This document shows, in pieces, positions 12,374 through 25,323 of a stretch of DNA of 64,000 nt. Under the pieces are notes generated by a model. That model worked only from the letters and a program-made list of their open reading frames with translations. It was not told the DNA's origin and did no database searches. Location: positions 10,765 to 74,764 of the forward strand of contig CAVWKA010000002.1 of NCBI GenBank assembly GCA_963755515.1, read 5' to 3'. Source of the DNA: an uncultured Verrucomicrobiae bacterium. GTDB taxonomy: Bacteria > Verrucomicrobiota > Verrucomicrobiia > Limisphaerales > UBA11358. Position 1 is the stretch's first letter; the number at the start of each line of letters is the position of its first letter. The translations under genes and the position numbers were made by a program.

Positions 12374-12715
12374 ATGCAGCGATTCCTGATCAAATGTATC
12401 AATTGCGGCTGGTTGATTATCATCGTCATCGGGATTCCGGCGGTGACGCGGGCGCGGCTTGGTCACCTGCAAATCACATCGGCGCCGAAGCTGCAACTGC
12501 TGTTGTTCTGGGGTCTGGCGCTGGGGCTGGCGGGAAACATTTTCGCGGCGGCATTTTTAATCAAAGGCCGGAAAGAGCGAATGCTTTGCTGGGAATGGGC
12601 GGGGGTGTTCGGCGCGTTGTTGTTTGCTTATGCCGCGTTTGTCCTGGGTTATTTCAATTTCAATTGGCTGAGGAATTTTTTGCTGTGGCTGCAAGGGGGA
12701 ATGACTAAGGAATGA
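12374..12715 (+). CDS. small hypothetical membrane protein (about 3 TM)
   Basis: 113 aa with three hydrophobic helices, located directly after the GT2 gene. No recognisable family. Confidence 0.5.
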   Translation: MQRFLIKCINCGWLIIIVIGIPAVTRARLGHLQITSAPKLQLLLFWGLALGLAGNIFAAAFLIKGRKERMLCWEWAGVFGALLFAYAAFVLGYFNFNWLRNFLLWLQGGMTKE

Positions 12716-12718
12716 CCG

Positions 12719-12814
12719 AATGAGGATTGAGGATTGAGGATTGAGGATTGAAGAATGAGGAATGAAGAATGAGGAATGAGGAGAAGGAAACGACGAAGAC
12801 GGGGATTTAACTGC
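12719..12814 (+). repeat. heptamer microsatellite (TGAGGAT/TGAGGAA)n plus conserved 35-bp flank, copy 1
   Basis: TGAGGATTGAGGATTGAGGATTGAGGATTGAAGAATGAGGAATGAAGAATGAGGAATGAGGAGAAGGAAACGACGAAGACGGGGATTTAACTGC. The same composite element lies at 31383-31474. Confidence 0.9.
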
Positions 12815-12970
12815 GAATGGACCGGTCTTCGCTCAGATGCTACGACCCGGCACGCGCGAATGGACCGGCCTTCGCTCAGAGCTAGGGCCGGGCACGCGCG
12901 AATTTGACACGGGCAAGGGCGGGGACAGACACGGATTTTTAACCGCAGAGAAGACAAGGAACGCAACGAC

Positions 12971-13325
12971 GGAAAGCGGAAACTGACACGGAATTTAACC
13001 GCGGATAACGCAGATGGGCGCAGATGACGGAGGCAGTGGGAGAGCCGCAAAAATGCGCAAAAGGCGCAAAACAAAATTTTAACCGCGGAGAACGCAAGGA
13101 ACGCAGAGACGCAACACAAAAAAACATTTTAACCACGGATGGCACGGATGGACGCGGATAAATTTTACAGAAGGAACCGAAGGGAATGAAGACGGGATTT
13201 AACCGCAAAGAGCGCAAAGAGCACAAAGATGGAAAGCGGAAACTGACACGGAATTTAACCGCGGATAGCGCAGATGGGCGCAGATGACGGAGGCAGTGGG
13301 AGAGCCGCAAAAATGCACAAAACGC
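12971..13325 (+). repeat. two approximately 95-bp direct repeats 260 bp apart, within a field of TTTAACCGCGGA-type low-complexity repeats
   Basis: 12971-13065 and 13231-13325: GGAAAGCGGAAACTGACACGGAATTTAACCGCGGATA(A/G)CGCAGATGGGCGCAGATGACGGAGGCAGTGGGAGAGCCGCAAAAATGC. Confidence 0.85.
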
Positions 13326-13477
13326 GCAAAGGGAAAGCGGGGACCGAGACGATTTTGAACAGAGGGATGAGTGAACCAGAGAATGAGGGAAAGGTCATGT
13401 TGCCCAGGAACGCGATTATTGAATGCCGAATGCGGAATGTCCGCCAATATGACAATATCATTAACTGACCCCTCATT

Positions 13478-13789
13478 CGCGCAATCTGGTGAGGCAACGA
13501 TTACGAGCATTCTGGTTTACTTTCATGCGTGCCCCCTCACCTCGATCCTCTCCCCCGAGGGGGAGAGGAAGTTTGGATGGACGCGCAATCTGGTGAGGCA
13601 ACGACTATGAACATTCTGGGTTATTTCCGTGCGTGCCCCCTCACCTCAATCCTCTCCCCCGAGGGGGAGAGGAAGTTTGGACGGACGCGCAATCCGGGGA
13701 GGCAACGACACTGAACATTCTGGTGTTCTTCCGTGCGCGCCCCCTCACCTCAATCCTCTCCCCCGAGGGGGAGAGGAAGTCTGAACGGC
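13478..13789 (+). repeat. 3 x 104-bp tandem repeat, each unit carrying a perfect 10-bp-stem hairpin
   Basis: Units start at 13478, 13582 and 13686 (CGCGCAATC...). Each contains CCTCTCCCCC-GA-GGGGGAGAGG (for example 13547-13568). Confidence 0.9.
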
Positions 13790-13920
13790 TACAGTTTTTC
13801 TGGAATGGCCATGGAATGGCTGCCGTCTTCCCGATCCGGCACGCAGCCGTGTTCCTGCAACTGGCCGAGCAAGGCCCTTTCCGATGATGGAAGCAAAATG
13901 GTTAGATCACCGGTCTGAAC

Positions 13921-15078
13921 TCATTTGGAATGCCACCAGTTGCGGATGTCATCGGCGGCTTGATGGGCGAAACCGGGAAAACGCTGGATGGCATCGCGGA
14001 TTTCGGGGAAGAAATGGGCGCCGAGCCATAGCAGCGCCAAAACCACCAAGAGCCAGACGACCGCATCCGCGAGAAACACGAGGGACCAGGTCCATTTCTG
14101 CTCGCGCAGACTCCAATAGCACATTTGGCGCGCCGCTTTCAACGGCATGGCGAGAATGCCATAGGCAATCATCAGGAGCAAGGCAGCGACCCAAACGGGC
14201 ACATTGAGCGGCAAGGAAATTCCCAGGACGGCTCCGGTGGCCAACAGGGAAATGATGGCGCAGATCCATCCGACGGTCAGAAGGCCTTGCAGCAATGAGA
14301 GCACTGGCAGGGTATAGGCCATGCCGGGATGAGCGGCAGCGTGGGCGGTCCAATAGCTGTGCCAGTTGTAACGCCACTGGTCGGCATGCGCCCGCATCTG
14401 ACGCTTGAACCGGCGTTTCCAGGCACGACTTCCCAGGCGGCCAGGGAAGTTTTTCATCGCCTCATAATAGCCTTCCCGCGCGCGATGGATGAATTCCTGG
14501 GCGGTGGACGGATTGCCGGAGGCGGCGGCTTTTTCCTCTGGCGACCGCGCCTCGGGTATCACAATGGCCATGATGATATAAACGAGCAGGCCGGTGCCCC
14601 AGAATATGGTCATCAGGACAAAGGCGAGACGCACGAAGGCGGGGTCAATACCGATATACGCGGCGACGCCATTGCAAACGCCGGCGATCATGGCGCCGTC
14701 ATGAATGCGATAGAGGCGCCGTGGCGGGGCGCCGGCACCGGGGGATTGATTTTCGCCCGGCGGATTCTGGCCGCCGGCCTTGTTGGATGCGCCTGAAGCG
14801 CCCGCGCCCGCAGTCTCACCCGGCCCGGTCTCGATAGGCCCCATTTCGGCCAGGACGGAGGCGACCTCTTTTTCGGACACGACATTTTTGTGGCTGGCGA
14901 GGAGGGCGCGGAATTTTTCGCCGATGGCGCTTTCGATATCGGAGAGGATTTCGTCGCGGTCGGGATTGCTGTGCAAACGGGCGGTGGCGGTATCGAGATA
15001 CGCGCGCAAGGCGTCGTAGCCGTTTTCTTCGAGCTGATAGGCGATGCCGCCGAGGTTGATGGTGATGACTTTGTTCAT
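13921..15078 (-). CDS. PspC-domain membrane protein
   Basis: Start trimmed to ATG at 15078 (MNKVITINL...), 15 nt downstream of the padR stop. PspC core RLYRIHDGAMIAGVCNGVAAYIGIDPAFVRLAFVLMTIFWGTGLLVYIIMAIVIP, followed by further TM helices. Confidence 0.85.
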   Translation of the reverse strand: MNKVITINLGGIAYQLEENGYDALRAYLDTATARLHSNPDRDEILSDIESAIGEKFRALLASHKNVVSEKEVASVLAEMGPIETGPGETAGAGASGASNKAGGQNPPGENQSPGAGAPPRRLYRIHDGAMIAGVCNGVAAYIGIDPAFVRLAFVLMTIFWGTGLLVYIIMAIVIPEARSPEEKAAASGNPSTAQEFIHRAREGYYEAMKNFPGRLGSRAWKRRFKRQMRAHADQWRYNWHSYWTAHAAAHPGMAYTLPVLSLLQGLLTVGWICAIISLLATGAVLGISLPLNVPVWVAALLLMIAYGILAMPLKAARQMCYWSLREQKWTWSLVFLADAVVWLLVVLALLWLGAHFFPEIRDAIQRFPGFAHQAADDIRNWWHSK

Positions 15079-15092
15079 GGTTGGTTTCCTTT

Positions 15093-15419
15093 CTATTTTT
15101 GGCCTAATTTTTTCACTGTTCCGTTGATTTGCGTCCAATAATCGAGGGTTTCGCGCAATTGTTGGCGGCCTTTGGCGGTGAGCATGTAATATTTGCGGGG
15201 GGGGCCGGCATCGGATTCCTTCCATTCGTAATCGAGGAGGCCTTCGCGGCGCAATTTGCTGAGCAAGGGATAGAGGGTGCCTTCCTGGGTGGCGAACTCG
15301 GTGGCGCTCAACTGTTTCAAAATATCGGCGACATAGACTTTTTCGGCGGCAATGATCTGGAGGACGAGGAACTCGAGGAGTCCCTTGCGGATGGCGGAAA
15401 ATTTTTCGTTGACGTTCAT
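15093..15419 (-). CDS. PadR-family transcriptional regulator
   Basis: 108 aa. LEFLVLQIIAAEKVYVADILKQL...GTLYPLLSKLRREGLLDYEWKESDAGPPRKYYMLTAKG is the PadR winged-helix signature. Confidence 0.9.
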   Translation of the reverse strand: MNVNEKFSAIRKGLLEFLVLQIIAAEKVYVADILKQLSATEFATQEGTLYPLLSKLRREGLLDYEWKESDAGPPRKYYMLTAKGRQQLRETLDYWTQINGTVKKLGQK

Positions 15420-15428
15420 TGCCGGTAC

Positions 15429-15460
15429 GGTAGCAAGCTACCTTATTGAATAAAGGTAGC
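15429..15460. promoter_or_regulatory. candidate PadR operator: three GGTAGC/GCTACC half-sites forming two overlapping palindromes
   Basis: GGTAGC-AA-GCTACC-TTATTGAATAAA-GGTAGC lies 10-40 nt upstream of the padR start codon. The first pair is a perfect palindrome; the second (GCTACCTTATT/AATAAAGGTAGC) is off by one T. Confidence 0.5.
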
Positions 15461-15507
15461 TGGTAAGGGGATGGGCGTCAAGCGGAAAAGATGGAAATTT
15501 CGGAGGA

Positions 15508-15603
15508 CCGCGGAGCGCCTGCGAATGGGGGCCTCCGGCTGCGTGAACCCCCTGCTGCACCGCCGGCGAGAAGGAAAAAATATGCAAATAATGACCGTTT
15601 ACG
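15508..15603 (+). repeat. left copy of an approximately 100-bp imperfect direct repeat bracketing the R-M cassette
   Basis: CCGCGGAGCGCCTGCGAATGGGGGCCTCCGGCTGCGTGAACCCCCTGCTGCACCGCCGGCG...AATATGCAAATA..CCGTTTAC aligns at roughly 80% with 18202-18308. Confidence 0.75.
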
Positions 15604-15738
15604 TTTTAACTCGCTGCTGTGGCTTTCCGAAAAAAATGCCTGGATTCAGCAATCCGGCAAACTGGCTTGCCCCAAAAGGTGTGGCAAATCGAATTCCAAT
15701 CCTTGCCAACGTTCTGCCTAGGTGTTAAGGTCGCACTC

Positions 15739-17115
15739 ATGTCGGCGCCCCCCGTATCGAAATCTCCAGAGACCAAGGAAGACGACGGCGCTTTGTTGCG
15801 TTTGCGGGAGGACTACACGCAGGCCGTGCTCGACATGTTCAATACGAACGCCGGGGCAAGCGAGCTTCGTCCGCAAATTGAAGTTGTCGGCCACACTTCC
15901 AATTTTCTCGACAACATGCGGTTGCCTGTCCACCGATGGTTCCGCTATAGTGCTGGTTTTTCCGCCGAATGGGTGAAATGGCTTCTTGCCGAAAGAAGCG
16001 GGGGCGAATTGCGAGTCTTCGATCCATTTGTAGGTTCAGGCACGACTTGTTTGGCGTGCGATGAAATGGCGATTCCATCCTATGGATTGGAAGCGCATCC
16101 GTTTGTGCATCGCGTCGCCCGCGCCAAATTAAGTTACGCTGCCGACCCGGAGCGGTTTTTGGCCAAGGCGGAGAATGCATTCTGCTTCGCCAGAAAAGCA
16201 CGCGGCGCGAATGGCTACCCGGAACTTATCCACAAATGTTTCTCAGCCGAAACACTCGACTCTCTCGACCGATTTCGCCGGGCGGTGGAGGCGGAACAAG
16301 ACGGCACACGCGAGGCGGAATTACTATGGATGGCACTTGTATCATCATTGCGAGTTGTATCCAAAGCAGGCACCGCGCCGTGGCAATATGTATTACCTGG
16401 CCGGCGCAAGACCACACCACCGGCACCGGAAATTGCCTTACGCCGGGCGGTTCAGATGATCGCCATTGACATCCGCTTTCTGGCCCGACGCGCCAAGCCT
16501 TTGGCAAAACTCCGGGTGGATGACGCCCGCCAATGCGCGACCGTTCCGAATGGTTGGGCCACACTTGTTATCACCTCGCCGCCCTACGCGAATAATTACG
16601 ATTACGCGGATGCCACGCGACTGGAGATGACGTTTTTGGGCGAGATTCGCGGCTGGGGCGACCTTCAGGAAAAGGTTAGGCAACACCTGGTCCGCGCTTG
16701 TTCTCAGCATGTCCCGCCCAACGCGGTAAATCTCGACGCGATTTTGGACTCGCCGGAACTGGCTCCAATTCGTGACGAAATTGCGCCGGTTTGCCGTGAG
16801 CTTTCATCCGTGCGATTGGAACGTGGTGGGAAAAAGACTTACAACAACATGATCGCCTGCTACTTCCTCGACATGGCAAAAGTGTGGCTGGCGCTCCGCC
16901 GCGTGTGCGCGTCGCCGTCCGAGGCATGTTTTGTCATCGGTGATTCCGCACCCTATGGAATCTATGTGCCGGTCATCGAGTGGTTTGGCAAACTCGCGAA
17001 AGCGGCCGGTTTTGATTCCTGGACATTTGAAAAACTTCGCGACCGGAACATCAAATGGAAAAACCGCAAACATCGTGTGCCGCTTTGCGAAGGACATCTC
17101 TGGGTTCGCGGATAA
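15739..17115 (+). CDS. DNA amino-methyltransferase (N4-cytosine or N6-adenine), type II R-M
   Basis: Start trimmed to ATG 15739. AdoMet motif DPFVGSGTT, then catalytic SPPY (TLVITSPPYANNYDY) downstream, which is alpha-type motif order. Confidence 0.85.
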   Translation: MSAPPVSKSPETKEDDGALLRLREDYTQAVLDMFNTNAGASELRPQIEVVGHTSNFLDNMRLPVHRWFRYSAGFSAEWVKWLLAERSGGELRVFDPFVGSGTTCLACDEMAIPSYGLEAHPFVHRVARAKLSYAADPERFLAKAENAFCFARKARGANGYPELIHKCFSAETLDSLDRFRRAVEAEQDGTREAELLWMALVSSLRVVSKAGTAPWQYVLPGRRKTTPPAPEIALRRAVQMIAIDIRFLARRAKPLAKLRVDDARQCATVPNGWATLVITSPPYANNYDYADATRLEMTFLGEIRGWGDLQEKVRQHLVRACSQHVPPNAVNLDAILDSPELAPIRDEIAPVCRELSSVRLERGGKKTYNNMIACYFLDMAKVWLALRRVCASPSEACFVIGDSAPYGIYVPVIEWFGKLAKAAGFDSWTFEKLRDRNIKWKNRKHRVPLCEGHLWVRG

Positions 17116-17125
17116 TCTGAAGATT

Positions 17126-18013
17126 ATGGCGGAATCACTTGCTCATCGCTGGGGACAAATCATTGGAGACGTTTTTGAGATGTTTGTTCGCAACATTCTT
17201 ACGGACGTGGCGAAACAGCATGACCTCTACCTCGACTTCAAGCGCCCTCGCAAAGCCAGAGGCAGCCAAGGCAAGCTGACCTGGCAGGATGGCTACGGAA
17301 ACAAACATGATCTCGACTACGTTCTGGAGCGAGGTGGCGACGAAGAGAGGTTGGGTGTGCCCGCGGCGTTCATTGAGTCAGCATGGCGACGATACACCAA
17401 ACATTCGAAGAACAAGGTGCAAGAAATTGAAGCCGCTGTTATGCCAGTGGCACTGACATTTTCGAGGCATCAGCCGTTCCTTGGAGCAGTGCTGGCCGGC
17501 GAATTCACCAAGAATGCCCTCCAGCAACTGGAATCAAAAGGCTTTGCCGTTCTGCATGTATCCTACGAATCCATTCTAACGGCATTCAATCAACTTGGCA
17601 TTGATGCTTCGTCTGAGGATGGCGTAGGCGGCACGACCGAAGAACAATTCCACAACAAAATAGCAAAATGGCAATCACTTCCCCAGCCGCAGTCAACCAA
17701 CCGGCTCCTGGCCAAACTGCGCACTCTTCATGAACAGGAAATTCTCGATTTCAAGCAGTGCCTGGAAGCTGCCATCATGAGGCGAGTGAGTTCCGTCCGG
17801 CTGACTGTGTTACGTGGTCATTCGGTCGAATGTTCCGACATCGAAAGCGCCATTATCTATCTGGTTGAAGAAGAAAAATCCTACCGCATGCGGGAGGACG
17901 GTGAGCAGCGTGAAAGTTTTGAAATTCAAGTCCGATTCAATACGGGGGCGAAGATTGAGGCTACGTTCCCCAAACGCGCGGAATCAATTGCCTTTCTGCG
18001 CAGCTTCACATGA
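17126..18013 (+). CDS. putative type II restriction endonuclease (cognate of the adjacent methyltransferase)
   Basis: 295-aa ORF 10 nt after the MTase stop, with visibly lower GC than its neighbours. Possible PD-(D/E)xK elements (HDLDYVLER, FIESAWRRYTKHSKNK). The assignment rests mainly on context. Confidence 0.55.
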   Translation: MAESLAHRWGQIIGDVFEMFVRNILTDVAKQHDLYLDFKRPRKARGSQGKLTWQDGYGNKHDLDYVLERGGDEERLGVPAAFIESAWRRYTKHSKNKVQEIEAAVMPVALTFSRHQPFLGAVLAGEFTKNALQQLESKGFAVLHVSYESILTAFNQLGIDASSEDGVGGTTEEQFHNKIAKWQSLPQPQSTNRLLAKLRTLHEQEILDFKQCLEAAIMRRVSSVRLTVLRGHSVECSDIESAIIYLVEEEKSYRMREDGEQRESFEIQVRFNTGAKIEATFPKRAESIAFLRSFT

Positions 18014-18201
18014 AAACATTTTGCTCAGGCTCCGTCGTTTCCTTTTTTGGCACTCCTGCCCTCTACGGAATCGAAATTGCGAAAGGACAAGTCTAAATAT
18101 GGCCGAAAATAAACCACCTGAATTCAGTAAGAAAACGTTGTGGACATTGTGGCAATGAATCGCACGGTTGCGGGCGGAGAGGACGGTGACTATCAAGTGG
18201 A

Positions 18202-18308
18202 TCGCCGAGCGCCTGCAAATGGGGACGTCCGGCTGCGTCAACGACCTGCTGAACGTCGGCGGCAAGGTGAAAGGGAATTAATATACAAATCTCAAGAATC
18301 CGTTTATG
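18202..18308 (+). repeat. right copy of the direct repeat bracketing the R-M cassette
   Basis: TCGCCGAGCGCCTGCAAATGGGGACGTCCGGCTGCGTCAACGACCTGCTGAACGTCGGCGGC...AATATACAAATC..CCGTTTAT. In one frame it reads LRAERTVTIKWIAERLQMGTSGCVNDLLNVGGKVKGN-stop, like the tail of a decayed gene. Confidence 0.75.
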
Positions 18309-18351
18309 GCTTTGGTTTTGTGTTGTACTTGGCGGATTGAAGAGACGAATA

Positions 18352-18400
18352 GGACGGAAAGGACGGATGGGACGGATGGGACGGATGGGACGACGAGGAC
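18352..18400 (+). repeat. 9-bp tandem repeat (GGACGGATG)n
   Basis: GGACGGAAAGGACGGATGGGACGGATGGGACGGATGGGACGACGAGGACGG. Same family as CACGGATGGCACGGATGGACGCGGAT at about 13135-13160. Confidence 0.8.
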
Positions 18401-18517
18401 GGAATGACAAGAAACGAGGGGACTGGGACAGCACCCGCACATGCTTGTTGCCGTGGGGATCAATGCCGCCCAGGCCGAAATTAACATGGCGACAATTGAG
18501 AAATCCGGGAATACTTT

Positions 18518-19903
18518 GTGGAATATATGTCCAAAACGTCGCGACGAGAATTTCTCGCCGGAGTCGCTTTGCTTGGCGCTTCATCACTTCTTCCTGGAAG
18601 CGCCGACGCGGCTCCGACGCCAGCCGGTCAGCCGGTCTCAGATTCCTCATGGTCCGCAGGCGACCGTCAAGAGGCAAGCGACCGGCTTCTTAATTACTTT
18701 GGCAGGACTGCGCCGCGGCTATTGCGGCCCGCCGAAGGCATCCTCTGGCATCCGAGCATTGCGTGCAGCCTTCCGGGCAAGGCCTATTCCACCAGCCTTT
18801 GGGACTGGGACACTTACTGGACGACGCGCGGCCTCTTCCGTTTTGCGAAAATTACAAATGATTCCGCGTTTCGGAAGAAAGTGGCTGAGCATGGCATCGG
18901 CAGTTTCATGAATTTCTTCGATCATCAATCGGACGAAGGCCGCATCGCCATCATGCTCGATGTGAATAATGCAGATCCGTTGGGATGCCTGAAGAAGGAG
19001 CGACCCAAATCACAAAACCAGGCGAAGCCAGTTTTCGGGCAGCTCGCCCTTTTGATCAGTGATGAAGTTGGCTCCGTGGACTGGCTGGCGCCGCACTTCG
19101 ACAAACTTCTGCAATTCCATGCGTCGTGGGTTTCCGGCAATCAGAGTCCGATTGGCCTTCTGGTGTGGGGAAACGACGTCGCCATCGGAAACGACAACGA
19201 TCCGACCACGTATGGACGGCCATTTTTTTCGTCCGCGAATCTGCTGTTGAATTGCCTTTTCCAAGAGGATTTGAAAGCGGCGATGGAGCTGGCCCGCCGG
19301 CTCAATCGTCCTGATGACGAGCAGCGCCTCAGCGTCCAGGCCACGACGCTTGGTGAGGAGATTCAGAAATATTGCTGGGATCCGCGCGATCAATTTTATT
19401 ATACGGTTGATGTGCAATGCGTTGACCGACGAAGGGAGCTAATTCCCAATGTGAAGCCGGGCATGGCGATGTCCTGGCATTGTTTGCCCCTACGCATCCA
19501 AACCTTCACTGGTTTTCTGCCGCTCTGGTGCGGTCTGGCTGAGCGTGCCCAGGCGAACCTGCTTGTGCAGACGAATTACCTTGGGGACGATCGCTTTTGC
19601 GGGAACTGGGGGGTTCGATCGCTTTCGTCAAAGGAAACCATGTATTGCATGGATTTCAGTTCAAATCCGAGTAATTGGCTGGGTCCTGTTTGGATCATCG
19701 TGAATTATTTTGTTTGGAAGGGGCTTAACGATTACGGGTTTCATGACGAGGCGGTGAAGCTGGCAGACAAGACGCTACGACTGCTGTCTGCGGATCTTGC
19801 GACGAATGGCTCGTTGAACGAATATTACGATCCGGACACGGGAAAGGCGCTGAGCCACAAAGGTTTTATGGATTGGAACCTACTTGTACTGGAAATGGCG
19901 TAA
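18518..19903 (+). CDS. TAT-secreted (alpha/alpha)6-barrel glycoside hydrolase, GH63/GH37-like (trehalase / mannosylglycerate-hydrolase type)
   Basis: Twin-arginine signal SRREFLAGVALLGASSLLPGSADA. WDWDTYW, GNWGVRSLS, NWLGPVWIIVNYFVWKGLNDYG, LNEYYDPDTGKAL and GFMDWNLLV match this fold family. Confidence 0.7.
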   Translation: MEYMSKTSRREFLAGVALLGASSLLPGSADAAPTPAGQPVSDSSWSAGDRQEASDRLLNYFGRTAPRLLRPAEGILWHPSIACSLPGKAYSTSLWDWDTYWTTRGLFRFAKITNDSAFRKKVAEHGIGSFMNFFDHQSDEGRIAIMLDVNNADPLGCLKKERPKSQNQAKPVFGQLALLISDEVGSVDWLAPHFDKLLQFHASWVSGNQSPIGLLVWGNDVAIGNDNDPTTYGRPFFSSANLLLNCLFQEDLKAAMELARRLNRPDDEQRLSVQATTLGEEIQKYCWDPRDQFYYTVDVQCVDRRRELIPNVKPGMAMSWHCLPLRIQTFTGFLPLWCGLAERAQANLLVQTNYLGDDRFCGNWGVRSLSSKETMYCMDFSSNPSNWLGPVWIIVNYFVWKGLNDYGFHDEAVKLADKTLRLLSADLATNGSLNEYYDPDTGKALSHKGFMDWNLLVLEMA

Positions 19904-19918
19904 GCAGGTTTGTAGCCT

Positions 19919-22675
19919 TTGGAAATGAAGCACGGATTAATTTTGATGTTGAGCACAGTCTTTCTGGGAGTGTCCGTGACAGCCATGACCGTTGGAAATC
20001 TTAAGTGCGAATATTGCAGCGACCCGATGGGTGTTGACGCGCCACAGCCGCGATTGGGCTGGGTATTGGAATCGGCCCAACGGGGCAACTTTCAAGCGGC
20101 GTATCAGATACTCGCAGCATCGAGCAAAAGCGAATTGAAAGAGAACCAGGGCGATTTGTGGGACAGCGGCAAGGTGGATTCGGACGAAACGATCCAAATT
20201 TTCTATGCGGGCATTCCGCTGAAATCTTCACAGCAGATTTTCTGGAAGGCGCGTGTCTGGGATGCGGATGGAAAAGTTTCCGACTGGAGCAAGGCCGGGA
20301 CGTGGACGATGGGAATTTTAAATGCGGAAGATTGGCACGCGCAGTGGATTGGCGCGGTGAACACCAATATGCCTTCGCTATTGCTGCGCCACGAATTTGT
20401 CGTCAAGCGAGGATTAAAACGGGCGGTGATTGACATATGTGGTCTTGGGCAATACGACCTGACGCTCAACGGAAAACCGGCGGACGATGATTTTCTTTCG
20501 CCTGGGTGGACGAAATATAACAAGACCTGTCTTTACGACACGCTCGACGTTACGAGATTGCTGCGGGCGGGCAAAAATGCCATTGGCATCGAACTTGGCA
20601 ACGGAATGTATAATATACTGGAGACGCGGTATCTGCGGGCCGGCTTGCGTCTTTATTCATTTGGCCCGCAGAAGGCCATTGCGCAAATCCGGCTCGAGTA
20701 TGCGGACGGTTCGGTTGAGACCGTGGTGACAGATCAAAGCTGGCGGCTTTCGCGCGGCCCGGTTACCACCTGTTCGATTTATTGCGGTGACAACTATGAC
20801 GCACGGCTGGAACAAAAAGGTTGGGACGAGGCCGGTTTTGACGATTCAGCGTGGGCGCCGGCCCAAATCGTCAACGGTCCAGGGGGCGACTTGCGCGGGC
20901 TTTCCTGCGCGGCGCCGCCGGTCCATTTTTTTGAAATTCACAAGCCAATTTCCTCACGCGCCCTCGGAAAGGGAGAGGTTGTCTTTGACCTCAGGCAGAA
21001 CGCCGCGCACGTCCCGAAAATATCCGTCACCGGTCCGGCGGGCAGTCGCGTGCGCATTATACCGTCCGAACTCATCGGCGCCAACGGGTTGGCGGACCAA
21101 CGTTCGATGGGGATACGGCGCGGAAACGCCATCTGGTGCGATTACACGAAGGCGACCGACGGCGTGGAGACATGGTCGCCAAAATTCTTCTACGTAGGCT
21201 GCCGTTATTTTGAAGTGAAATCGTTTCCGGCAAAGGGCGGGACCACATTGCCCGCCGTGAAATCCATCGAAGGCATCGTGGTTCAATCTTCATCCCAACC
21301 GGTTGGCGAATTTGAATGTTCCAACACGTTGTTCAATCGAATCCGCGACCTTGTTCGATGGGCGCAGCGCAACAACATGATGAGCATCATGACCGATTGT
21401 TCGACGCGAGAGAAACGGGGCTGGCTGGAGCAGGACCATTTGAACGGGCCGGCGCTGCGTTACGAATTCGACCTTGCGCAATTGTTCACCAAGACGCTGA
21501 ACGACATGGCGGATTCGCAGTTGACGAACGGCCTGGTGCCGACGACCGCGCCGGAGTACACGATTTTGCTCGACAGCAACACGCCGCCAGGCCGGCGGAA
21601 CAATTTTGGCGATTCACCCGAATGGAGCAGCGCCATGATTCTCGTGCCGTGGCAGCAATATGAATTCGACGGCGACCTGAACCTGTTCCGCATCCATTAT
21701 GACGCGATGAGCCACTATCTGGCCTACCTGGGGAGCCGGGCGACGAATTACATCGTCAATTACGGACTGGGCGACTGGTATGACCTTGGCCCAAAACATC
21801 CGGGCATAGCGCAGCTCACGCCGATTGCGCTGACCGCGACGGCATTTTATTACCGGGACGCTGAAATCATGTCACGCGCCGCGGCGCTGCTTGGCAAAGC
21901 GGAGGACGCGAGACAATTTTCCGATCTGGCGGGAAAAATCCGCGCCGCGTTCAACGAAAGATATTACGCCGCGACGAATCATTTTTATGCGACCGATTCA
22001 CAGACGGCCAATTCGATTCCGCTGGTGATGGGCATTTGCGAGCCGAGCCATCGAGGCGCGGTTCTCGACGCAATAGTTGCCGACATTGGCAAACGCGGCG
22101 ACTCGTTCACGGCGGGGGACGTGGGGTATCGGTATTTGCTGCGGGCGCTGGCCGAAGGGGGGCGCAACGACGTGATTTTTGAGATGAATAATCGGTTGGA
22201 CAAGCCGGGTTACGGTCTGCAATTGAAAAGAGGGGCGACGAGCCTGACCGAAGCATGGGATGCCGGGCGTGATTCGTCACAGGATCATTTCATGCTCGGC
22301 CAGATTCAGGAATGGTTTTACCATGACCTGGCGGGCATCCAGGACGCGCCGGGCAGCCCGGGTTTCAAACAAATTGTGATCGCGCCGCAGCCATGCGGGA
22401 ATGTAAAATGGGTCAAGGCCAGCTATGATTCTGCGCGGGGAGAGATTGAAAGTGACTGGAAGCAAAATGGAGGAAGGTTCAGGTTGCGGGCAACAATTCC
22501 GCCGAACACAACGGCAACATTTTTAATTCCGGCACGCGATGCGAATGAGGTTTTGGAAAGCGGCGGACCGGCCGCGAAGTCCCCGGGCGCGCATTTTCTG
22601 GGGATGGAAGACGGCAGGGCAGTTTTTCAGACGGGGTCCGGAAGATACAATTTTGAAAGCAAATTGATGAGGTAA
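19919..22675 (+). CDS. alpha-L-rhamnosidase (GH78)
   Basis: 918 aa with signal peptide. N-terminal LKCEYCSDPMGVDAPQPRLGWVLES...AAYQILAASS...GDLWDSGKVDSDETIQIFYAGIPLKSSQQIFWKARVWDADGKVSDWS is the classic GH78 N-domain. The catalytic-domain pattern REKRGWLEQD is also present. Confidence 0.9.
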   Translation: MEMKHGLILMLSTVFLGVSVTAMTVGNLKCEYCSDPMGVDAPQPRLGWVLESAQRGNFQAAYQILAASSKSELKENQGDLWDSGKVDSDETIQIFYAGIPLKSSQQIFWKARVWDADGKVSDWSKAGTWTMGILNAEDWHAQWIGAVNTNMPSLLLRHEFVVKRGLKRAVIDICGLGQYDLTLNGKPADDDFLSPGWTKYNKTCLYDTLDVTRLLRAGKNAIGIELGNGMYNILETRYLRAGLRLYSFGPQKAIAQIRLEYADGSVETVVTDQSWRLSRGPVTTCSIYCGDNYDARLEQKGWDEAGFDDSAWAPAQIVNGPGGDLRGLSCAAPPVHFFEIHKPISSRALGKGEVVFDLRQNAAHVPKISVTGPAGSRVRIIPSELIGANGLADQRSMGIRRGNAIWCDYTKATDGVETWSPKFFYVGCRYFEVKSFPAKGGTTLPAVKSIEGIVVQSSSQPVGEFECSNTLFNRIRDLVRWAQRNNMMSIMTDCSTREKRGWLEQDHLNGPALRYEFDLAQLFTKTLNDMADSQLTNGLVPTTAPEYTILLDSNTPPGRRNNFGDSPEWSSAMILVPWQQYEFDGDLNLFRIHYDAMSHYLAYLGSRATNYIVNYGLGDWYDLGPKHPGIAQLTPIALTATAFYYRDAEIMSRAAALLGKAEDARQFSDLAGKIRAAFNERYYAATNHFYATDSQTANSIPLVMGICEPSHRGAVLDAIVADIGKRGDSFTAGDVGYRYLLRALAEGGRNDVIFEMNNRLDKPGYGLQLKRGATSLTEAWDAGRDSSQDHFMLGQIQEWFYHDLAGIQDAPGSPGFKQIVIAPQPCGNVKWVKASYDSARGEIESDWKQNGGRFRLRATIPPNTTATFLIPARDANEVLESGGPAAKSPGAHFLGMEDGRAVFQTGSGRYNFESKLMR

Positions 22676-22944
22676 GAAGAGGCCGCATAAAGTAAAATCG
22701 CCATAATAAAGCCGGTTAACGGCACGAATGCAAAGTTCCCTACCCGCCCGTCTTAATGGCGGCGGCGGCGGGCGTTTCTCCGAGGAGGTTAATGCGCCTA
22801 TTTTTTTGGAGTTTTAGCTCGACAGACTTTTTGATTTGGATGATAAGATTATGCCCAATAAGGTCTGGCTTTTCTTCCCGGAATCCACGGGTGCTACGGG
22901 CGGAAGCGTCAATCTGCTGAATCCAAAACTGACAGGAGAAACGT

Positions 22945-25323
22945 ATGAAAAATCGCGGTGCAACTGTATTTACGGCGCTGGCTTTGCTGGCGCTCTTAAC
23001 CATAAACTTTCAACCCTCAACCGCCTTCGCCCAGAACACGGTAGTCACCTATCAGGGCCGGGTGACGGACAATGGGACGAATTTTAGCGGCGCTGGACTG
23101 TTCCAATTCGCGCTGGTGACCAGCACGAACAACGACAGCCAGGCGACCGCCGCCGCCAGCCCTCCCAGCGGCGGCTACGTGACGGTCATCAACGTGATTT
23201 CCGGGGGTGCTGGATATACCAATACGCCTGCGGTAACCATCAGCGGCGGGGGCGCCAGTACGAACGCGACGGCGACGGCGACGGTGAGCGGCGGGGCGGT
23301 GACGGGCATCACGGTCACCGATCCTGGTTTCGGCTACACCAGCACGCCGACAGTGGTGATTGCGCCGCCTCCGCCGGACATTACCTACACGACGTATTGG
23401 AGCAATGACGGCACGGGCGTGAATGGGAGCGAACCCTCCGCAGCGGTGGGCGTGGGCGTGAGCAACGGGCTGTTCACCGTGGGATTGGGCGACACGACGC
23501 TGGCGAACATGACGGGGCTTCCCGCGGGGCTGTTCACGCAGCCGGGGCTACAACTGCAAATCTGGTTTAATGACGGCGTGAATGGTTTTGCGTTGCTCAA
23601 TCCGTTGCAGGACCTCACGGCGACGCCTTACACGGCTTTTGCCAACAGTGCCAGTAATTTGCTGGGAGTGTTACCGGCAGGCCAGTTAAACGGCACGGTG
23701 CCATTGTCGCAATTGCCGGCGGCAGTGGTGACGAACGATGAAACGTCCGTGACGCTGGACAATCTCACTCTCAACGGCGTAATTACGGCAAATGACGGCA
23801 TCAGTATCATCAGCGGCAGTCTAAATCTGCCTAATCCGGTCACGGTTAATTCCGGCTTTGGCAGCCTTTTTTATTCCGGCAGCGCGAATGGCAATTTTTT
23901 TGCCGGCCTCTTTGCCGGCAATCCGGCCAACGACAACGGCGGCGACAACGCGGCCTTTGGCGCTAATGCGCTTGCATCCAATACGACCGGCTCCGATAAC
24001 GCGGCCAGCGGCTTTGACGCGCTTTACTTCAATACGGGAGGCGATGCGAACACGGCGGATGGATGGAAAGCGCTTTATGCCAACACGAGCGGGGGTCTTA
24101 ACACGGCCAACGGCTCTCAGGCGCTTTTTTCCAATACGAACGGAAGCGGCAACACCGCCTCCGGATTTGATGCGCTTTACGCCAACACGAGCGGCGAAAA
24201 CAACACGGCAGATGGCGGTCAAGCGCTTTACGGTAACACGAGCGGGGGTCGTAACACGGCCAACGGCTTTCAGGCGCTTTTCTCCAATACGAACGGCACC
24301 GGCAACACGGCCTCCGGATTTGATGCGCTTTACGCCAACACGGGCGGCGAAAACAACACTGCGGATGGCTGTCAAGCGCTTAACGGTAACACGAGCGGGG
24401 GTCTTAACACGGCGAACGGCTTCCAGGCGCTTTTCTCCAATACGAACGGCACCGGCAACACGGCCTCCGGATTTGATGCGCTTTTCGCCAACACGAGCGG
24501 CGAAAACAACACTGCGGATGGCGGTCAAGCGCTTAACGGCAACACGAGCGGGGGTTTTAACACGGCGAACGGCTTCCAGGCGCTTTTCGCCAATACGAGC
24601 GGCGGTCTGAACACCGCCAACGGCTTCCAAGCGCTTGACGCAAACACAGGCGGCAGCCAAAACGTCGCAATAGGCAATGATGCGCTCACCAACAACACTT
24701 TGGGCAGCGGCAACATCGGTATTGGATTTCAGGCCGGGGAAGCTAATCCCAACGACGCCAATGACAACATTGACATCGGCAGTCCAGGCGGGACTTTTGA
24801 CGGCACAATTATCTCTCCCGGCGGCGTCGTCCGCATCGGAAGCGGCCAAAGTGCCACTTATCTGGCAGGGAATGTCTATGGCGAGAGTTTCAATCAAAGC
24901 AGTGACCGGAACGCCAAGGAAAATTTTGCCGGCATCAATCCGCAAACGGTGCTGGCCAAAGTGGCGGAAATGCCCATCACCGAATGGAATTACAAGATTG
25001 ATAGAAATGTCGAACACATCGGCCCGATGGCGCAGGATTTTCACGCGGCGTTCGGGTTGAACGGAGGCGATGACAAACATATTTCCACGGTGGATGAAGG
25101 CGGCGTGGCGCTGGCGGCGATACAGGGGCTTAATGAAAAGGTGGAAGTCAGAAGTCAGAAGTCAGAAGTCAGAATCCAGAATCTGGAAGTGGAGAACGCG
25201 AAACTCCAGGCGGAGGTTTCCGATTTGCGGTCGCAGCTTGGCGGGCTGCGAGAGGCCGTGGCCCGGCTCACGGACCCATCCGCCAGTCCGGTTGCCCTGA
25301 ATACGCGACAGGAGGACAAATGA
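22945..25323 (+). CDS. secreted fibre protein ('tail fibre domain' type) with C-terminal peptidase-S74 intramolecular chaperone domain, paralogue 1
   Basis: Signal peptide; [16 protein letters not shown]...FQFALVTS head; two GGxGYTxxPxVTISGGG pseudo-repeats; about 15 copies of a 17-aa repeat NTAxGxxALxxNTxGxx. The C-terminus SSDRNAKENF..ITEWNYK..HIGPMAQDFHAAFGL..STVDEGGVALAAIQGL is the endosialidase-chaperone signature, followed by a coiled coil. RBS AGGAGA lies 6 nt upstream. Confidence 0.85.
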   Translation: MKNRGATVFTALALLALLTINFQPSTAFAQNTVVTYQGRVTDNGTNFSGAGLFQFALVTSTNNDSQATAAASPPSGGYVTVINVISGGAGYTNTPAVTISGGGASTNATATATVSGGAVTGITVTDPGFGYTSTPTVVIAPPPPDITYTTYWSNDGTGVNGSEPSAAVGVGVSNGLFTVGLGDTTLANMTGLPAGLFTQPGLQLQIWFNDGVNGFALLNPLQDLTATPYTAFANSASNLLGVLPAGQLNGTVPLSQLPAAVVTNDETSVTLDNLTLNGVITANDGISIISGSLNLPNPVTVNSGFGSLFYSGSANGNFFAGLFAGNPANDNGGDNAAFGANALASNTTGSDNAASGFDALYFNTGGDANTADGWKALYANTSGGLNTANGSQALFSNTNGSGNTASGFDALYANTSGENNTADGGQALYGNTSGGRNTANGFQALFSNTNGTGNTASGFDALYANTGGENNTADGCQALNGNTSGGLNTANGFQALFSNTNGTGNTASGFDALFANTSGENNTADGGQALNGNTSGGFNTANGFQALFANTSGGLNTANGFQALDANTGGSQNVAIGNDALTNNTLGSGNIGIGFQAGEANPNDANDNIDIGSPGGTFDGTIISPGGVVRIGSGQSATYLAGNVYGESFNQSSDRNAKENFAGINPQTVLAKVAEMPITEWNYKIDRNVEHIGPMAQDFHAAFGLNGGDDKHISTVDEGGVALAAIQGLNEKVEVRSQKSEVRIQNLEVENAKLQAEVSDLRSQLGGLREAVARLTDPSASPVALNTRQEDK
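24151..24609 (+). repeat. 3 x 153-bp near-identical tandem super-repeat (each 3 x 51 bp) inside fibre gene 1
   Basis: Units start at 24151, 24304 and 24457 (AACAC(C/G)GCCTCCGGATTTGATGCGCTTT...). They encode NTASGFDALYANTSGENNTADGGQAL.GNTSGG.NTANGFQALFSNTNGTG. Confidence 0.85.

What the first reader, a model, noticed from the sequence alone, without database searches (positions are those of the whole stretch)
15508..18308. Type II R-M cassette bracketed by approximately 100-bp direct repeats that look like decayed gene tails
Seen: the methyltransferase (DPFVGSGTT ... SPPY) and a lower-GC 295-aa ORF are flanked by 15508-15603 and 18202-18308, which align at roughly 80% over about 100 bp. Both end in AATAT(G/A)CAAAT...CCGTTTA(C/T). 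The right copy reads in frame LRAERTVTIKWIAERLQMGTSGCVNDLLNVGGKVKGN-stop, and the left copy reads a degenerate version (FRRTAERLRMGASGCVNPLL). The repeats therefore look like the 3' end of a duplicated or decayed gene. I have a loose, unverified recollection of similar C-terminal peptides on small transposase-associated ORFs in PVC genomes. Inference: the cassette was inserted by, or can be excised through, recombination between these repeats, which would make it a minimal mobile defence island. The endonuclease has no family I can name.
Basis: partly seen in the sequence, partly recalled or inferred. Interest (0 to 1): 0.55.

Follow-up and report, generated by a model that had tools for sequence, protein, structure and literature searches.

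The report
R-M gene pair between transposon-end remnants
An ordinary two-gene restriction-modification defence system sits in a strain-variable spot of a Verrucomicrobiota genome between two decayed 3' ends of a common IS200-like transposable element, and a near-identical strain that lacks it shows the repeats were not what removed it.

Summary
A methyltransferase (15739-17115) and a 295-aa ORF (17126-18013) are flanked by two direct copies of about 105-170 bp. The core is 84% identical over 56 nt and the whole repeat is 75% identical over 108 nt.

Both genes match REBASE-derived PADLOC models over their full length (MTase_II E 6.5e-125; REase_II E 1.4e-62). The nuclease therefore does have a family.

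The repeats are 5'-truncated 3' ends of a roughly 1-kb IS-like element. That element encodes a 312-aa Y1 (IS200/RAYT-like) transposase and has 23-bp terminal inverted repeats. I found it at 371 loci in Verrucomicrobiota genomes, never next to this R-M pair.

The mobility inference is not supported in the form stated:
- A contig 99.9% identical in the left flank lacks window 15520 to about 18337. It keeps only the first ~36 nt of the left copy, not one hybrid repeat.
- The same R-M pair occurs in seven other contexts without these repeats.
- The two copies are hardly closer to each other (75%) than to family members in other genomes (71-76%).

Best reading: a dispensable R-M cassette in a locus littered with IS remnants, lost by illegitimate deletion. 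This is a known kind of arrangement (compare PluTI) and of low to moderate interest.

The parts
15484..15603 (+). Left repeat: a degenerate, 5'-truncated 3' end of the Y1-transposase IS-like element. It reads ...RRTAERLRMGASGCVNPLL... and ends in the degenerate terminal repeat AAATATGCAAATAATGACCGTTTAC.
   Evidence: Family profile hit at 15503-15571, E 1.1e-7. blastn to family elements covers positions about 888/912-1032. The terminus aligns with the family terminus.
15739..17115 (+). Type II DNA methyltransferase, 458 aa. Motif I (DPFVGSGTT) is at residue 95 and motif IV (SPPY) at residue 280.
   Evidence: PADLOC MTase_II PDLC03306, E 6.5e-125, residues 52-458 vs profile 18-422/422. Pfam N6_N4_Mtase matches motif I only. 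Motif positions.
17126..18013 (+). Type II restriction endonuclease candidate, 295 aa. It starts 10 nt after the MTase stop.
   Evidence: PADLOC REase_II PDLC03525, E 1.4e-62, residues 1-294 vs profile 1-287/288. 3119 homologues. The gene follows a homologous MTase in every context fetched. A 35%-identical homologue on an Erwinia plasmid follows an annotated DNA methyltransferase.
18136..18307 (+). Right repeat: a 5'-truncated 3' end of the same element. The ORF fragment IARLRAERTVTIKWIAERLQMGTSGCVNDLLNVGGKVKGN* spans 18159-18281. It is followed by the degenerate terminal repeat ...AATATACAAATCTCAAGAATCCGTTTAT.
   Evidence: Family profile hit at 18148-18298, E 1.6e-20. blastn covers element positions about 850/880-1030. 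phmmer found 40 relatives at 55-72% identity.
15520..18337 (.). Segment absent from the cassette-free allele L009 (Logan SRR30413545). L009 has 30 unrelated nt in its place.
   Evidence: L009 matches window 13753-15519 at 99.9% and 18359-19400 at 98.7%. The junction was read. The right limit lies between 18338 and 18357.
15520..15918 (.). Segment absent from allele L001 (ENA ERZ25039501 contig_62397). It covers the rest of the left repeat and the first 60 MTase codons. L001 also has a +1 G at 17325 in the REase gene.
13445..13472 (+). Third, very short remnant of the same element terminus (CAATATGACAATATCATTAACTGACCCC), in the same orientation.
   Evidence: Fuzzy search and direct reading, compared with the termini.
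13921..15419 (-). Left flank: the PadR-PspC operon, conserved in relatives.
   Evidence: Pfam PadR E 2.2e-20 and PspC E 2.3e-21. 80 orthologous loci carry the pair, but none has the R-M or the tails upstream.
18518..19903 (+). Right flank: a GH63/MGH1-like glycoside hydrolase gene, whose alleles diverge between strains.
   Evidence: Pfam MGH1-like_GH E 2.5e-34. L001's copy is about 92% identical and L009's 98.7%.

Best explanation
This is a conventional type II restriction-modification pair. The methyltransferase gene comes first and the nuclease gene follows 10 nt downstream on the same strand. The pair belongs to a family that is widespread in Verrucomicrobiota.

It lies in a strain-variable intergenic spot between a conserved PadR-PspC operon and a GH63-like gene.

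The two 'direct repeats' are not a signature of how the cassette moves. They are two 5'-truncated, decayed 3' ends of a roughly 1-kb IS-like element. Each holds the last 35-55 codons of the transposase gene plus the 23-bp terminal inverted repeat. The element encodes a Y1 (IS200/RAYT-like) transposase and is multi-copy in this phylum. A third such remnant lies 2 kb further left.

The cassette therefore sits between pre-existing repeated sequences in a locus rich in IS remnants. This corresponds to Furuta's third class, 'chance insertion between repeated sequences', or to a substitution.

The cassette is dispensable. One near-identical strain has lost it through a 2.8-kb illegitimate deletion with 30 nt of filler. 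Another appears to carry a truncated M gene and a frameshifted R gene.

What is shown: the gene families, the origin of the repeats, the presence/absence polymorphism and its end points, and the lack of repeat association elsewhere.

What is inferred: that the enzymes are active, that L009 is a deletion rather than the ancestral state, and that the two remnants arose independently or very long ago.
For: Gene identity:
- PADLOC gives full-length matches for both genes.
- The M-then-R order is kept in seven other Verrucomicrobiota contexts and on an Erwinia plasmid.

Origin of the repeats:
- phmmer with the 40-aa tail gave 40 hits.
- A profile search gave at least 1495 proteins.
- The parent is 312 aa, with Pfam Y1_Tnp at 47 bits against a cutoff of 23.
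- 371 loci were found in genome contigs, almost all from Verrucomicrobiota MAGs, with many copies per genome.
- The element is about 1018 bp with sharp ends. Many copies are 5'-truncated but keep an intact 3' end.
- It has 23-bp terminal inverted repeats.
- Both window copies end exactly at the family terminus.

No link between the repeats and the R-M pair:
- No MTase or REase homologue occurs in 386 kb around 80 family members.
- No tail, terminal repeat or flanking repeat of 30 bp or more surrounds the other R-M copies.

Weak kinship of the two copies: they are 75% identical to each other and 71-76% identical to members from other genomes.

The empty allele carries no repeat copy.

The left copy aligns with the family in register across position 15519/15520. 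W's left copy is therefore one continuous remnant, and L009 is most simply a deletion.
Against: - Only two substantial remnants exist in 64 kb, and they lie exactly either side of the cassette in the same orientation. That placement is suggestive.
- The two copies share substitutions that are rare in the family: SGC instead of (R/P/A)GY, and CAAAT instead of CCAAAAT in the terminus. Their mutual alignment score (49) is slightly above any other (42-47).
- Two alleles, L001 and L009, break at the same left position, 15519/15520. A purely passive role for the remnant does not explain this.
- The rest of this genome was not available, so copies from the same genome could not be compared (searches found nothing).
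- The nuclease fold was not confirmed. The AF2 core has pLDDT below 50 and Foldseek found no PDB match.
Confidence: 0.68

Rival explanations
1. Insertion with long target duplication (Nobusato/Furuta/Kobayashi type). A single pre-existing transposon-end remnant was duplicated when the R-M pair inserted. The two copies have since diverged, and L009 is a later deletion.
For: - The repeats are direct and in the same orientation, immediately outside the R and M genes. The insert is under 20 kb and the repeat is longer than 30 bp, which are Furuta's criteria.
- The copies share rare substitutions.
- The left-right alignment score is the top score.
Against: - The empty allele does not hold one copy of the repeat.
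- The copies are only 75% identical, no closer than to elements of other genomes.
- Both copies end at the element's own terminus, and the right copy extends about 35-50 nt further 5' than the left. This fits two separately truncated elements better than one duplicated stretch.
- None of seven other insertions of this R-M family has flanking repeats.
Confidence: 0.15
2. The Y1 transposase mobilises the cassette in trans. The cassette plus one or both element ends behaves as a non-autonomous transposon, or the remnant's interior is a transposase cleavage or recombination hot spot that gains and loses cargo.
For: - Both copies keep (degenerate) terminal repeats.
- The family makes many non-autonomous derivatives.
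- The same breakpoint, 15519/15520, appears in two alleles.
Against: - Two-ended derivatives of the family always pair a left end with a right end in inverted orientation. Here both ends are right ends in direct orientation, and no left end is detectable in 15300-18500.
- No transposase gene lies in the window.
- The terminal repeats are degraded.
- The 5'-truncation points in the family do not cluster at the equivalent position, about L014 3214.
- DNA folding around 15519 is no better than shuffled sequence, z -0.43.
- No other R-M copy is bracketed in this way.
Confidence: 0.08
3. A site-specifically integrated island with attL and attR formed by an integrase.
For: Direct repeats bracket a small island whose REase gene has lower GC than the window.
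Against: - There is no integrase or recombinase ORF between 13.9 and 22.7 kb. All large ORFs there are assigned as PspC, PadR, M, R, GH63 and the unscanned GH78-like 918-aa ORF.
- The repeats are 75% identical with indels, not an identical core.
- The empty allele lacks an attB-like copy.
Confidence: 0.02

Closest known systems
PluTI R-M unit of Photorhabdus luminescens (Khan et al. 2010, PMC2875022)
   Same: An R-M gene unit flanked by direct repeats that turn out, on inspection, to be pieces of 3' ends of insertion sequences. It was proposed as a putative mobile unit, and no clean empty site was available.
   Different: - PluTI's repeats are 16/16 bp, unique in the genome, and come from the IS982 family. 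Here the repeats are about 105-170 bp, 75-84% identical, and come from a Y1 (IS200/RAYT-like) element.
- Here an allele without the cassette exists, and it argues against repeat-mediated movement.
- No extra P-loop genes are present in this unit.
Insertion of R-M systems with long target duplication (Nobusato 2000; Furuta, Abe, Kobayashi 2010, PMC2853133)
   Same: R and M genes are bracketed by direct repeats longer than 30 bp, with no mobility gene inside and an insert under 20 kb.
   Different: The defining comparison fails. The related genome without the R-M does not carry one copy of the repeated sequence. The repeats belong to a multi-copy element family, which is Furuta's separate class of 'chance insertions between repeated sequences'.
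IS200/IS605-family insertion sequences and REP-associated tyrosine transposases (RAYTs)
   Same: The parent of the repeats encodes a Y1 HUH transposase domain. Pfam Y1_Tnp scores 47 bits, and NCBIfam's best hit is REP_Tyr_transpos at 47.7 bits. As with RAYTs, the gene is flanked by inverted copies of a short conserved sequence.
   Different: - It falls below the NCBIfam cutoffs for both RAYT (80 bits) and IS200 (55 bits).
- It carries a C-terminal extension of about 190 aa that ends in the conserved tail.
- It has perfect 23-bp terminal inverted repeats. By my own knowledge, canonical IS200/IS605 elements have none.
- It is multi-copy with deletion derivatives, whereas RAYTs are typically single-copy (PMC5581495).
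REBASE type II systems represented by PADLOC models PDLC03306 (MTase_II) and PDLC03525 (REase_II)
   Same: Both proteins match the models over their full length.
   Different: The PADLOC output does not name the prototype enzyme or recognition site. Pfam and NCBIfam have no model for the nuclease.

Membership tests
Type II restriction-modification system | DNA methyltransferase with an AdoMet-binding motif I and a catalytic motif IV | tested here: met
   DPFVGSGTT at residue 95 and SPPY at residue 280. PADLOC MTase_II E 6.5e-125 over the full length. Pfam N6_N4_Mtase scores 35 bits against a cutoff of 26.7.
Type II restriction-modification system | A separate, adjacent restriction endonuclease gene | tested here: met
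   PADLOC REase_II PDLC03525, E 1.4e-62, residues 1-294 vs profile 1-287/288. The M-R adjacency is conserved in all nine fetched contigs (seven distinct contexts) and on an Erwinia plasmid.
Type II restriction-modification system | Recognisable nuclease catalytic fold (for example PD-(D/E)xK) | tested here: inconclusive
   The AF2 model has mean pLDDT 68, and residues 40-118 are below 50. Foldseek against PDB found nothing at E <= 0.001. phmmer against PDB found nothing relevant.
Type II restriction-modification system | Sequence-specific methylation and cleavage | not testable with these tools
   This needs methylome data or cloned enzymes. Palindrome avoidance is ambiguous: GATC, GTAC, ATCGAT and GTCGAC are all depleted.
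R-M insertion with long target duplication | R and M both inside, insert under 20 kb, flanking direct repeat over 30 bp | tested here: met
   The insert is about 2.6 kb between the repeats. The repeats are about 105 bp at 75% identity, with a 56-nt core at 84%. Criteria are from PMC2853133.
R-M insertion with long target duplication | A related genome without the R-M carries one copy of the repeated sequence at the site | tested here: not met
   L009 keeps only about 36 nt (15484-15519) of the left copy. It then has 30 unrelated nt and rejoins the window at 18338-18357.
Integrase-mediated genomic island | An integrase gene and an identical att core at both ends | tested here: not met
   No recombinase ORF lies in or next to the bracket. 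The repeats are 75% identical with indels.
Composite or non-autonomous transposon of the Y1/TIR element | Cargo bracketed by a left end and a right end in inverted orientation | tested here: not met
   Both remnants are right ends on the + strand. No left-end similarity exists in 15300-18500. Family derivatives keep left end plus right end.
IS200/IS605 - RAYT superfamily (parent of the repeats) | Y1 HUH transposase domain | tested here: met
   L014 2344-3282 scores Pfam Y1_Tnp E 2.5e-12, and L072 scores 1.5e-11. The HUH-like NHFH motif and the RYKS tyrosine are visible in the sequence.
IS200/IS605 - RAYT superfamily (parent of the repeats) | Reaches NCBIfam equivalog cutoffs (IS200 or RAYT); for RAYT, single copy per genome | tested here: not met
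   REP_Tyr_transpos scores 47.7 bits against a cutoff of 80, and transpos_IS200 scores 20.8 against 55. There are many copies per genome.

The most novel reading that the evidence does not exclude
The remnants may not be inert. The interior of the transposase tail (around GAGCGCC|TGCG, 15519/15520) could be a recurrent break or recombination site, possibly cut by the Y1 transposase acting in trans. Decayed ends of this very abundant Verrucomicrobiota element would then serve as docking and deletion points where small defence cassettes are gained and lost. The evidence not excluding this is that two independent alleles break at the same nucleotide, and that the only two sizeable remnants in 64 kb bracket the cassette.
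Probability: 0.1. Interest if true: 0.5.

Novelty: new member of a known kind. Interest (0 to 1): 0.25.

Why it matters
The value is mainly cautionary. A pair of long direct repeats around a defence cassette looks like the footprint of mobility. Here, population-level alleles and a family-wide survey show the repeats are generic transposon debris. The cassette is lost by a different route.

The case adds a Verrucomicrobiota example to the known class of R-M units flanked by IS remnants. It documents presence, decay and loss of one R-M system among strains that are 99.6-99.9% identical in the left flank.

Two by-products may be worth more than the finding itself:
- An R-M family whose nuclease is unusually uniform (78-88% identity) across very many Verrucomicrobiota genomes in unrelated contexts.
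- A multi-copy Y1-transposase element with true terminal inverted repeats, which sits between classical IS200 elements and domesticated RAYT/REP systems.

Tried and rejected
1. A word-indexed protein search with the 40-aa tail found only the same locus. tblastn against plasmids found nothing. A viral-contig scan found no relative.
2. Exact-pattern scans for this species' repeat in genome contigs and for its left junction in metagenome contigs both returned 0 hits. The source genome and further alleles could therefore not be fetched.
3. Exact look-ups of the window's REase and GH63 proteins are not on record.
4. I fetched 80 PspC-orthologous loci to look for an ancestral empty site. Synteny upstream of PadR is not conserved, and the closest contig (93%) is cut inside PadR.
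5. Hairpin hypothesis for the shared 15519/15520 breakpoint: DNA folding gives z -0.43 and +0.39, no better than shuffles. Rejected.
6. Hot-spot hypothesis tested on the family: 5'-truncation points are scattered (3016-3238 in L014 coordinates) with no cluster at the equivalent site, about 3214.
7. The REase structure model has a low-confidence core (pLDDT below 50), and Foldseek against PDB gave only noise. phmmer against PDB gave nothing.
8. I tried to guess the recognition site from palindrome avoidance. Several sites are depleted and none can be attributed to this system.
9. The promoter and terminator scan of 15350-18560 found nothing above the shuffled expectation.
10. The 30 nt in L009 compared with the 30 nt at 18308-18337: by my own ungapped count they match at 10/30, so they are not homologous (sequences).
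Full report
**Observation**

The window holds a methyltransferase gene (15739-17115) and, 10 nt after its stop, a 295-aa ORF (17126-18013), both on the + strand. The repeat finder reports a direct repeat at 15505-15560 / 18199-18254, 56 nt at 84%. A gapped alignment of 15503-15603 with 18197-18307 gives 81/108, or 75%.

The core 18-mer occurs only at these two places in 64 kb, against 0.24 expected. The right copy reads IARLRAERTVTIKWIAERLQMGTSGCVNDLLNVGGKVKGN* and is closed upstream by TGA at 18156. The left copy reads ...RRTAERLRMGASGCVNPLL....

**The two genes**

PADLOC's REBASE-derived models match both proteins end to end. MTase_II PDLC03306 scores E 6.5e-125, and REase_II PDLC03525 scores E 1.4e-62 over residues 1-294 against profile positions 1-287 of 288. 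Pfam sees only motif I of the MTase and has nothing for the nuclease.

Motif I (DPFVGSGTT, residue 95) lies 185 residues before motif IV (SPPY, residue 280). This order is permuted relative to the Pfam N6_N4_Mtase model.

The nuclease has 3119 homologues at E < 1e-5. The best 120 are almost all 295 aa long and 78-88% identical, mostly from Verrucomicrobiota / Limisphaerales MAGs. In every contig fetched (seven distinct contexts) it follows a homologous MTase. MTase identity is 82-92% aa and REase identity 82-88% aa, and DNA homology to the window stops at the ORF boundaries, 15755-18021. A 35%-identical homologue on small Erwinia plasmids also follows an annotated DNA methyltransferase.

A structure model was too uncertain in the putative catalytic core (pLDDT < 50 for residues 40-118) to confirm a nuclease fold, and Foldseek found nothing.

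**What the repeats are**

An exhaustive phmmer search with the 40-aa tail found 40 proteins at E <= 1e-3, 55-72% identical. Their consensus is ...KGDxxKVALAARLRAETTMTVxWIAERLxMGTxGYLNHLLYRRRK.... A profile of these found at least 1495 proteins.

Full-length members are 312-313 aa. They have an N-terminal Pfam Y1_Tnp domain (47 bits against a cutoff of 23), and their best NCBIfam hit is the REP-associated tyrosine transposase, though below its cutoff.

A scan of one genome per species confirmed 371 loci. Nearly all are in Verrucomicrobiota MAGs, many genomes carry many copies, and copies often lie at contig ends.

Comparison with a reference copy shows a discrete element of about 1018 bp with sharp ends. 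There are many internally deleted copies that keep both ends, and many 5'-truncated copies with an intact 3' end. The ends are perfect 23-bp inverted repeats: AAAGGGGTCAGTTCTTGATATTG ... CAATATCAAGAACTGACCCCTTT. The right end lies 24 nt after the stop codon.

Both window copies end exactly at this terminus. They are closest to the subfamily ending ...AATATGCCAAAATCAAGAACTGACCCGTTTAY. A profile of 27 full elements hits the window only at 18148-18298 (E 1.6e-20) and 15503-15571 (E 1.1e-7). A third remnant of about 28 nt from the terminus lies at 13445-13472.

The repeats are therefore decayed 3' ends of an IS-like element.

**Are the repeats linked to the cassette?**

Four results say they are not:
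- In 386 kb around 80 family members there is no homologue of this MTase or REase.
- Around the seven other contexts of the R-M pair there is no tail, no terminal repeat and no flanking direct repeat of 30 bp or more.
- The two window copies are 75% identical to each other and 71-76% identical to elements from other genomes.
- No left-end sequence of the element lies in 15300-18500, so the pair does not form a two-ended derivative.

**Alleles of the locus**

An exact look-up of the PadR protein returned three contigs from other samples.
- L010 (ERR11523672) confirms the window's left junction at 99.6%.
- L001 (ENA ERZ25039501) is 99.6-99.8% identical but lacks 15520-15918. That segment is the rest of the left copy plus the first 60 MTase codons. 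L001 also has an extra G at 17325 in the nuclease gene, and its GH63-like gene is only about 92% identical.
- L009 (Logan SRR30413545) matches 13753-15519 at 99.9% and 18359-19400 at 98.7%. Between these it has 30 unrelated nt plus a differently sized 9-mer repeat block.

The cassette is therefore absent from a near-identical strain. That allele keeps only the first ~36 nt of the left copy and nothing of the right copy.

Recombination between the repeats, or an insertion with long target duplication, would leave or start from one full copy. Neither fits. The left copy aligns with the family in register across 15519/15520. The simplest reading is that L009 is a 2.8-kb illegitimate deletion from a window-like ancestor, and that L001 is a partly decayed cassette.

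L001 and L009 share the same left break point, and I cannot explain this. Folding and the family's truncation points give no support for a structural or transposase hot spot. L001 also carries many indels that may be assembly errors.

**Relatives**

Eighty PspC-orthologous loci (58-93% aa identity) all keep PadR-PspC. None has the R-M, the tails or GH63 upstream within 8 kb. The cassette and its right-hand neighbours are thus not ancestral to this operon's surroundings, but no further empty site was obtained.

**Comparison with what is known**

Furuta, Abe and Kobayashi (PMC2853133) divide direct repeats around R-M genes into three classes: site-specific recombination, insertion with long target duplication, and chance insertion between repeated sequences. 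Their test for the second class is that the repeats align with the empty genome. This locus meets the formal size criteria but fails that test.

The closest described case is PluTI (PMC2875022). There, the direct repeats flanking an R-M unit proved to be parts of 3' ends of IS982-family elements.

The parent element resembles IS200/IS605 and RAYTs in its Y1 domain. It differs in three ways: it has true terminal inverted repeats, a long C-terminal extension, and high copy number. RAYTs are typically single-copy (PMC5581495).

**Verdict**

This is a real and correctly described structure. It is an ordinary type II R-M pair in a variable, IS-remnant-rich site. The repeats are explained and are probably incidental. 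The proposed repeat-mediated mobility is not supported by the one natural empty allele.

It is a new member of a known kind, with interest about 0.25. The most novel reading still open is that the remnants act as break or docking sites for defence cassettes. It rests only on the shared break point and the bracketing, and I give it a probability of about 0.1.

Noticed in passing
L014:2289-3306 and L011-L090 generally; window remnants at 13445-13472, 15484-15603, 18136-18307: A roughly 1018-bp, multi-copy IS-like element of Verrucomicrobiota. It encodes a 312-aa Y1 (IS200/RAYT-like) transposase with a C-terminal extension of about 190 aa, and has perfect 23-bp terminal inverted repeats. Short TGACCCCTTTAC units are reiterated outside both ends. 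There are many two-ended internal-deletion copies and many 5'-truncated copies. By my own knowledge, canonical IS200/IS605 elements have no terminal inverted repeats, and RAYTs are single-copy. I did not check whether ISfinder lists it.
   Followed up: partly
window 17126-18013 and P0002-P0121: The restriction enzyme family is unusually uniform. It has 3119 homologues, and the best 120 are nearly all 295 aa and 78-88% identical, in unrelated genomic contexts across Verrucomicrobiota. NCBI names some of them 'DNA methylase', which looks like a mis-annotation carried over from the neighbouring gene.
   Followed up: partly
window 13478-13789: Three tandem copies of a 104-nt unit (84-91% identical). 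Each contains the 24-nt palindrome TCCTCTCCCCCGAGGGGGAGAGGA. The repeat is also present in L001. It sits in a repeat-rich intergenic stretch (12690-13900) with further 71-nt and 37-nt repeats.
   Followed up: no
window 18334-18404: A tandem array of 9-nt units of the GGACGGATG type, just right of the right remnant. Its length varies between strains: L009 has a different unit count and about 77 extra nt.
   Followed up: partly
L001 vs window 18547-20084 and 20085-22717: In the otherwise 99.6-99.8% identical contig L001, the GH63-like gene is only about 92% identical and carries several indels. A further 2.6 kb inside the 918-aa GH78-like gene is missing. This points either to a recombination mosaic or pseudogenisation next to the cassette, or to assembly artefacts.
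   Followed up: no
window, with L002, L005, L007, L171-L173 (119 kb): Several palindromes are strongly depleted relative to a Markov expectation: GATC 335 vs 552, GTAC 65 vs 140, ATCGAT 2 vs 20.8, GTCGAC 0 vs 15.3. This suggests several R-M specificities act on these genomes. None could be assigned to this system.
   Followed up: partly
window 23947-24603 and 27689-28679: Internal repeats with a period of about 153 nt, and a 1-kb paralogous stretch at 83-88% identity. They appeared when L001 was aligned to the window, and probably represent repeated domains in large ORFs.
   Followed up: no
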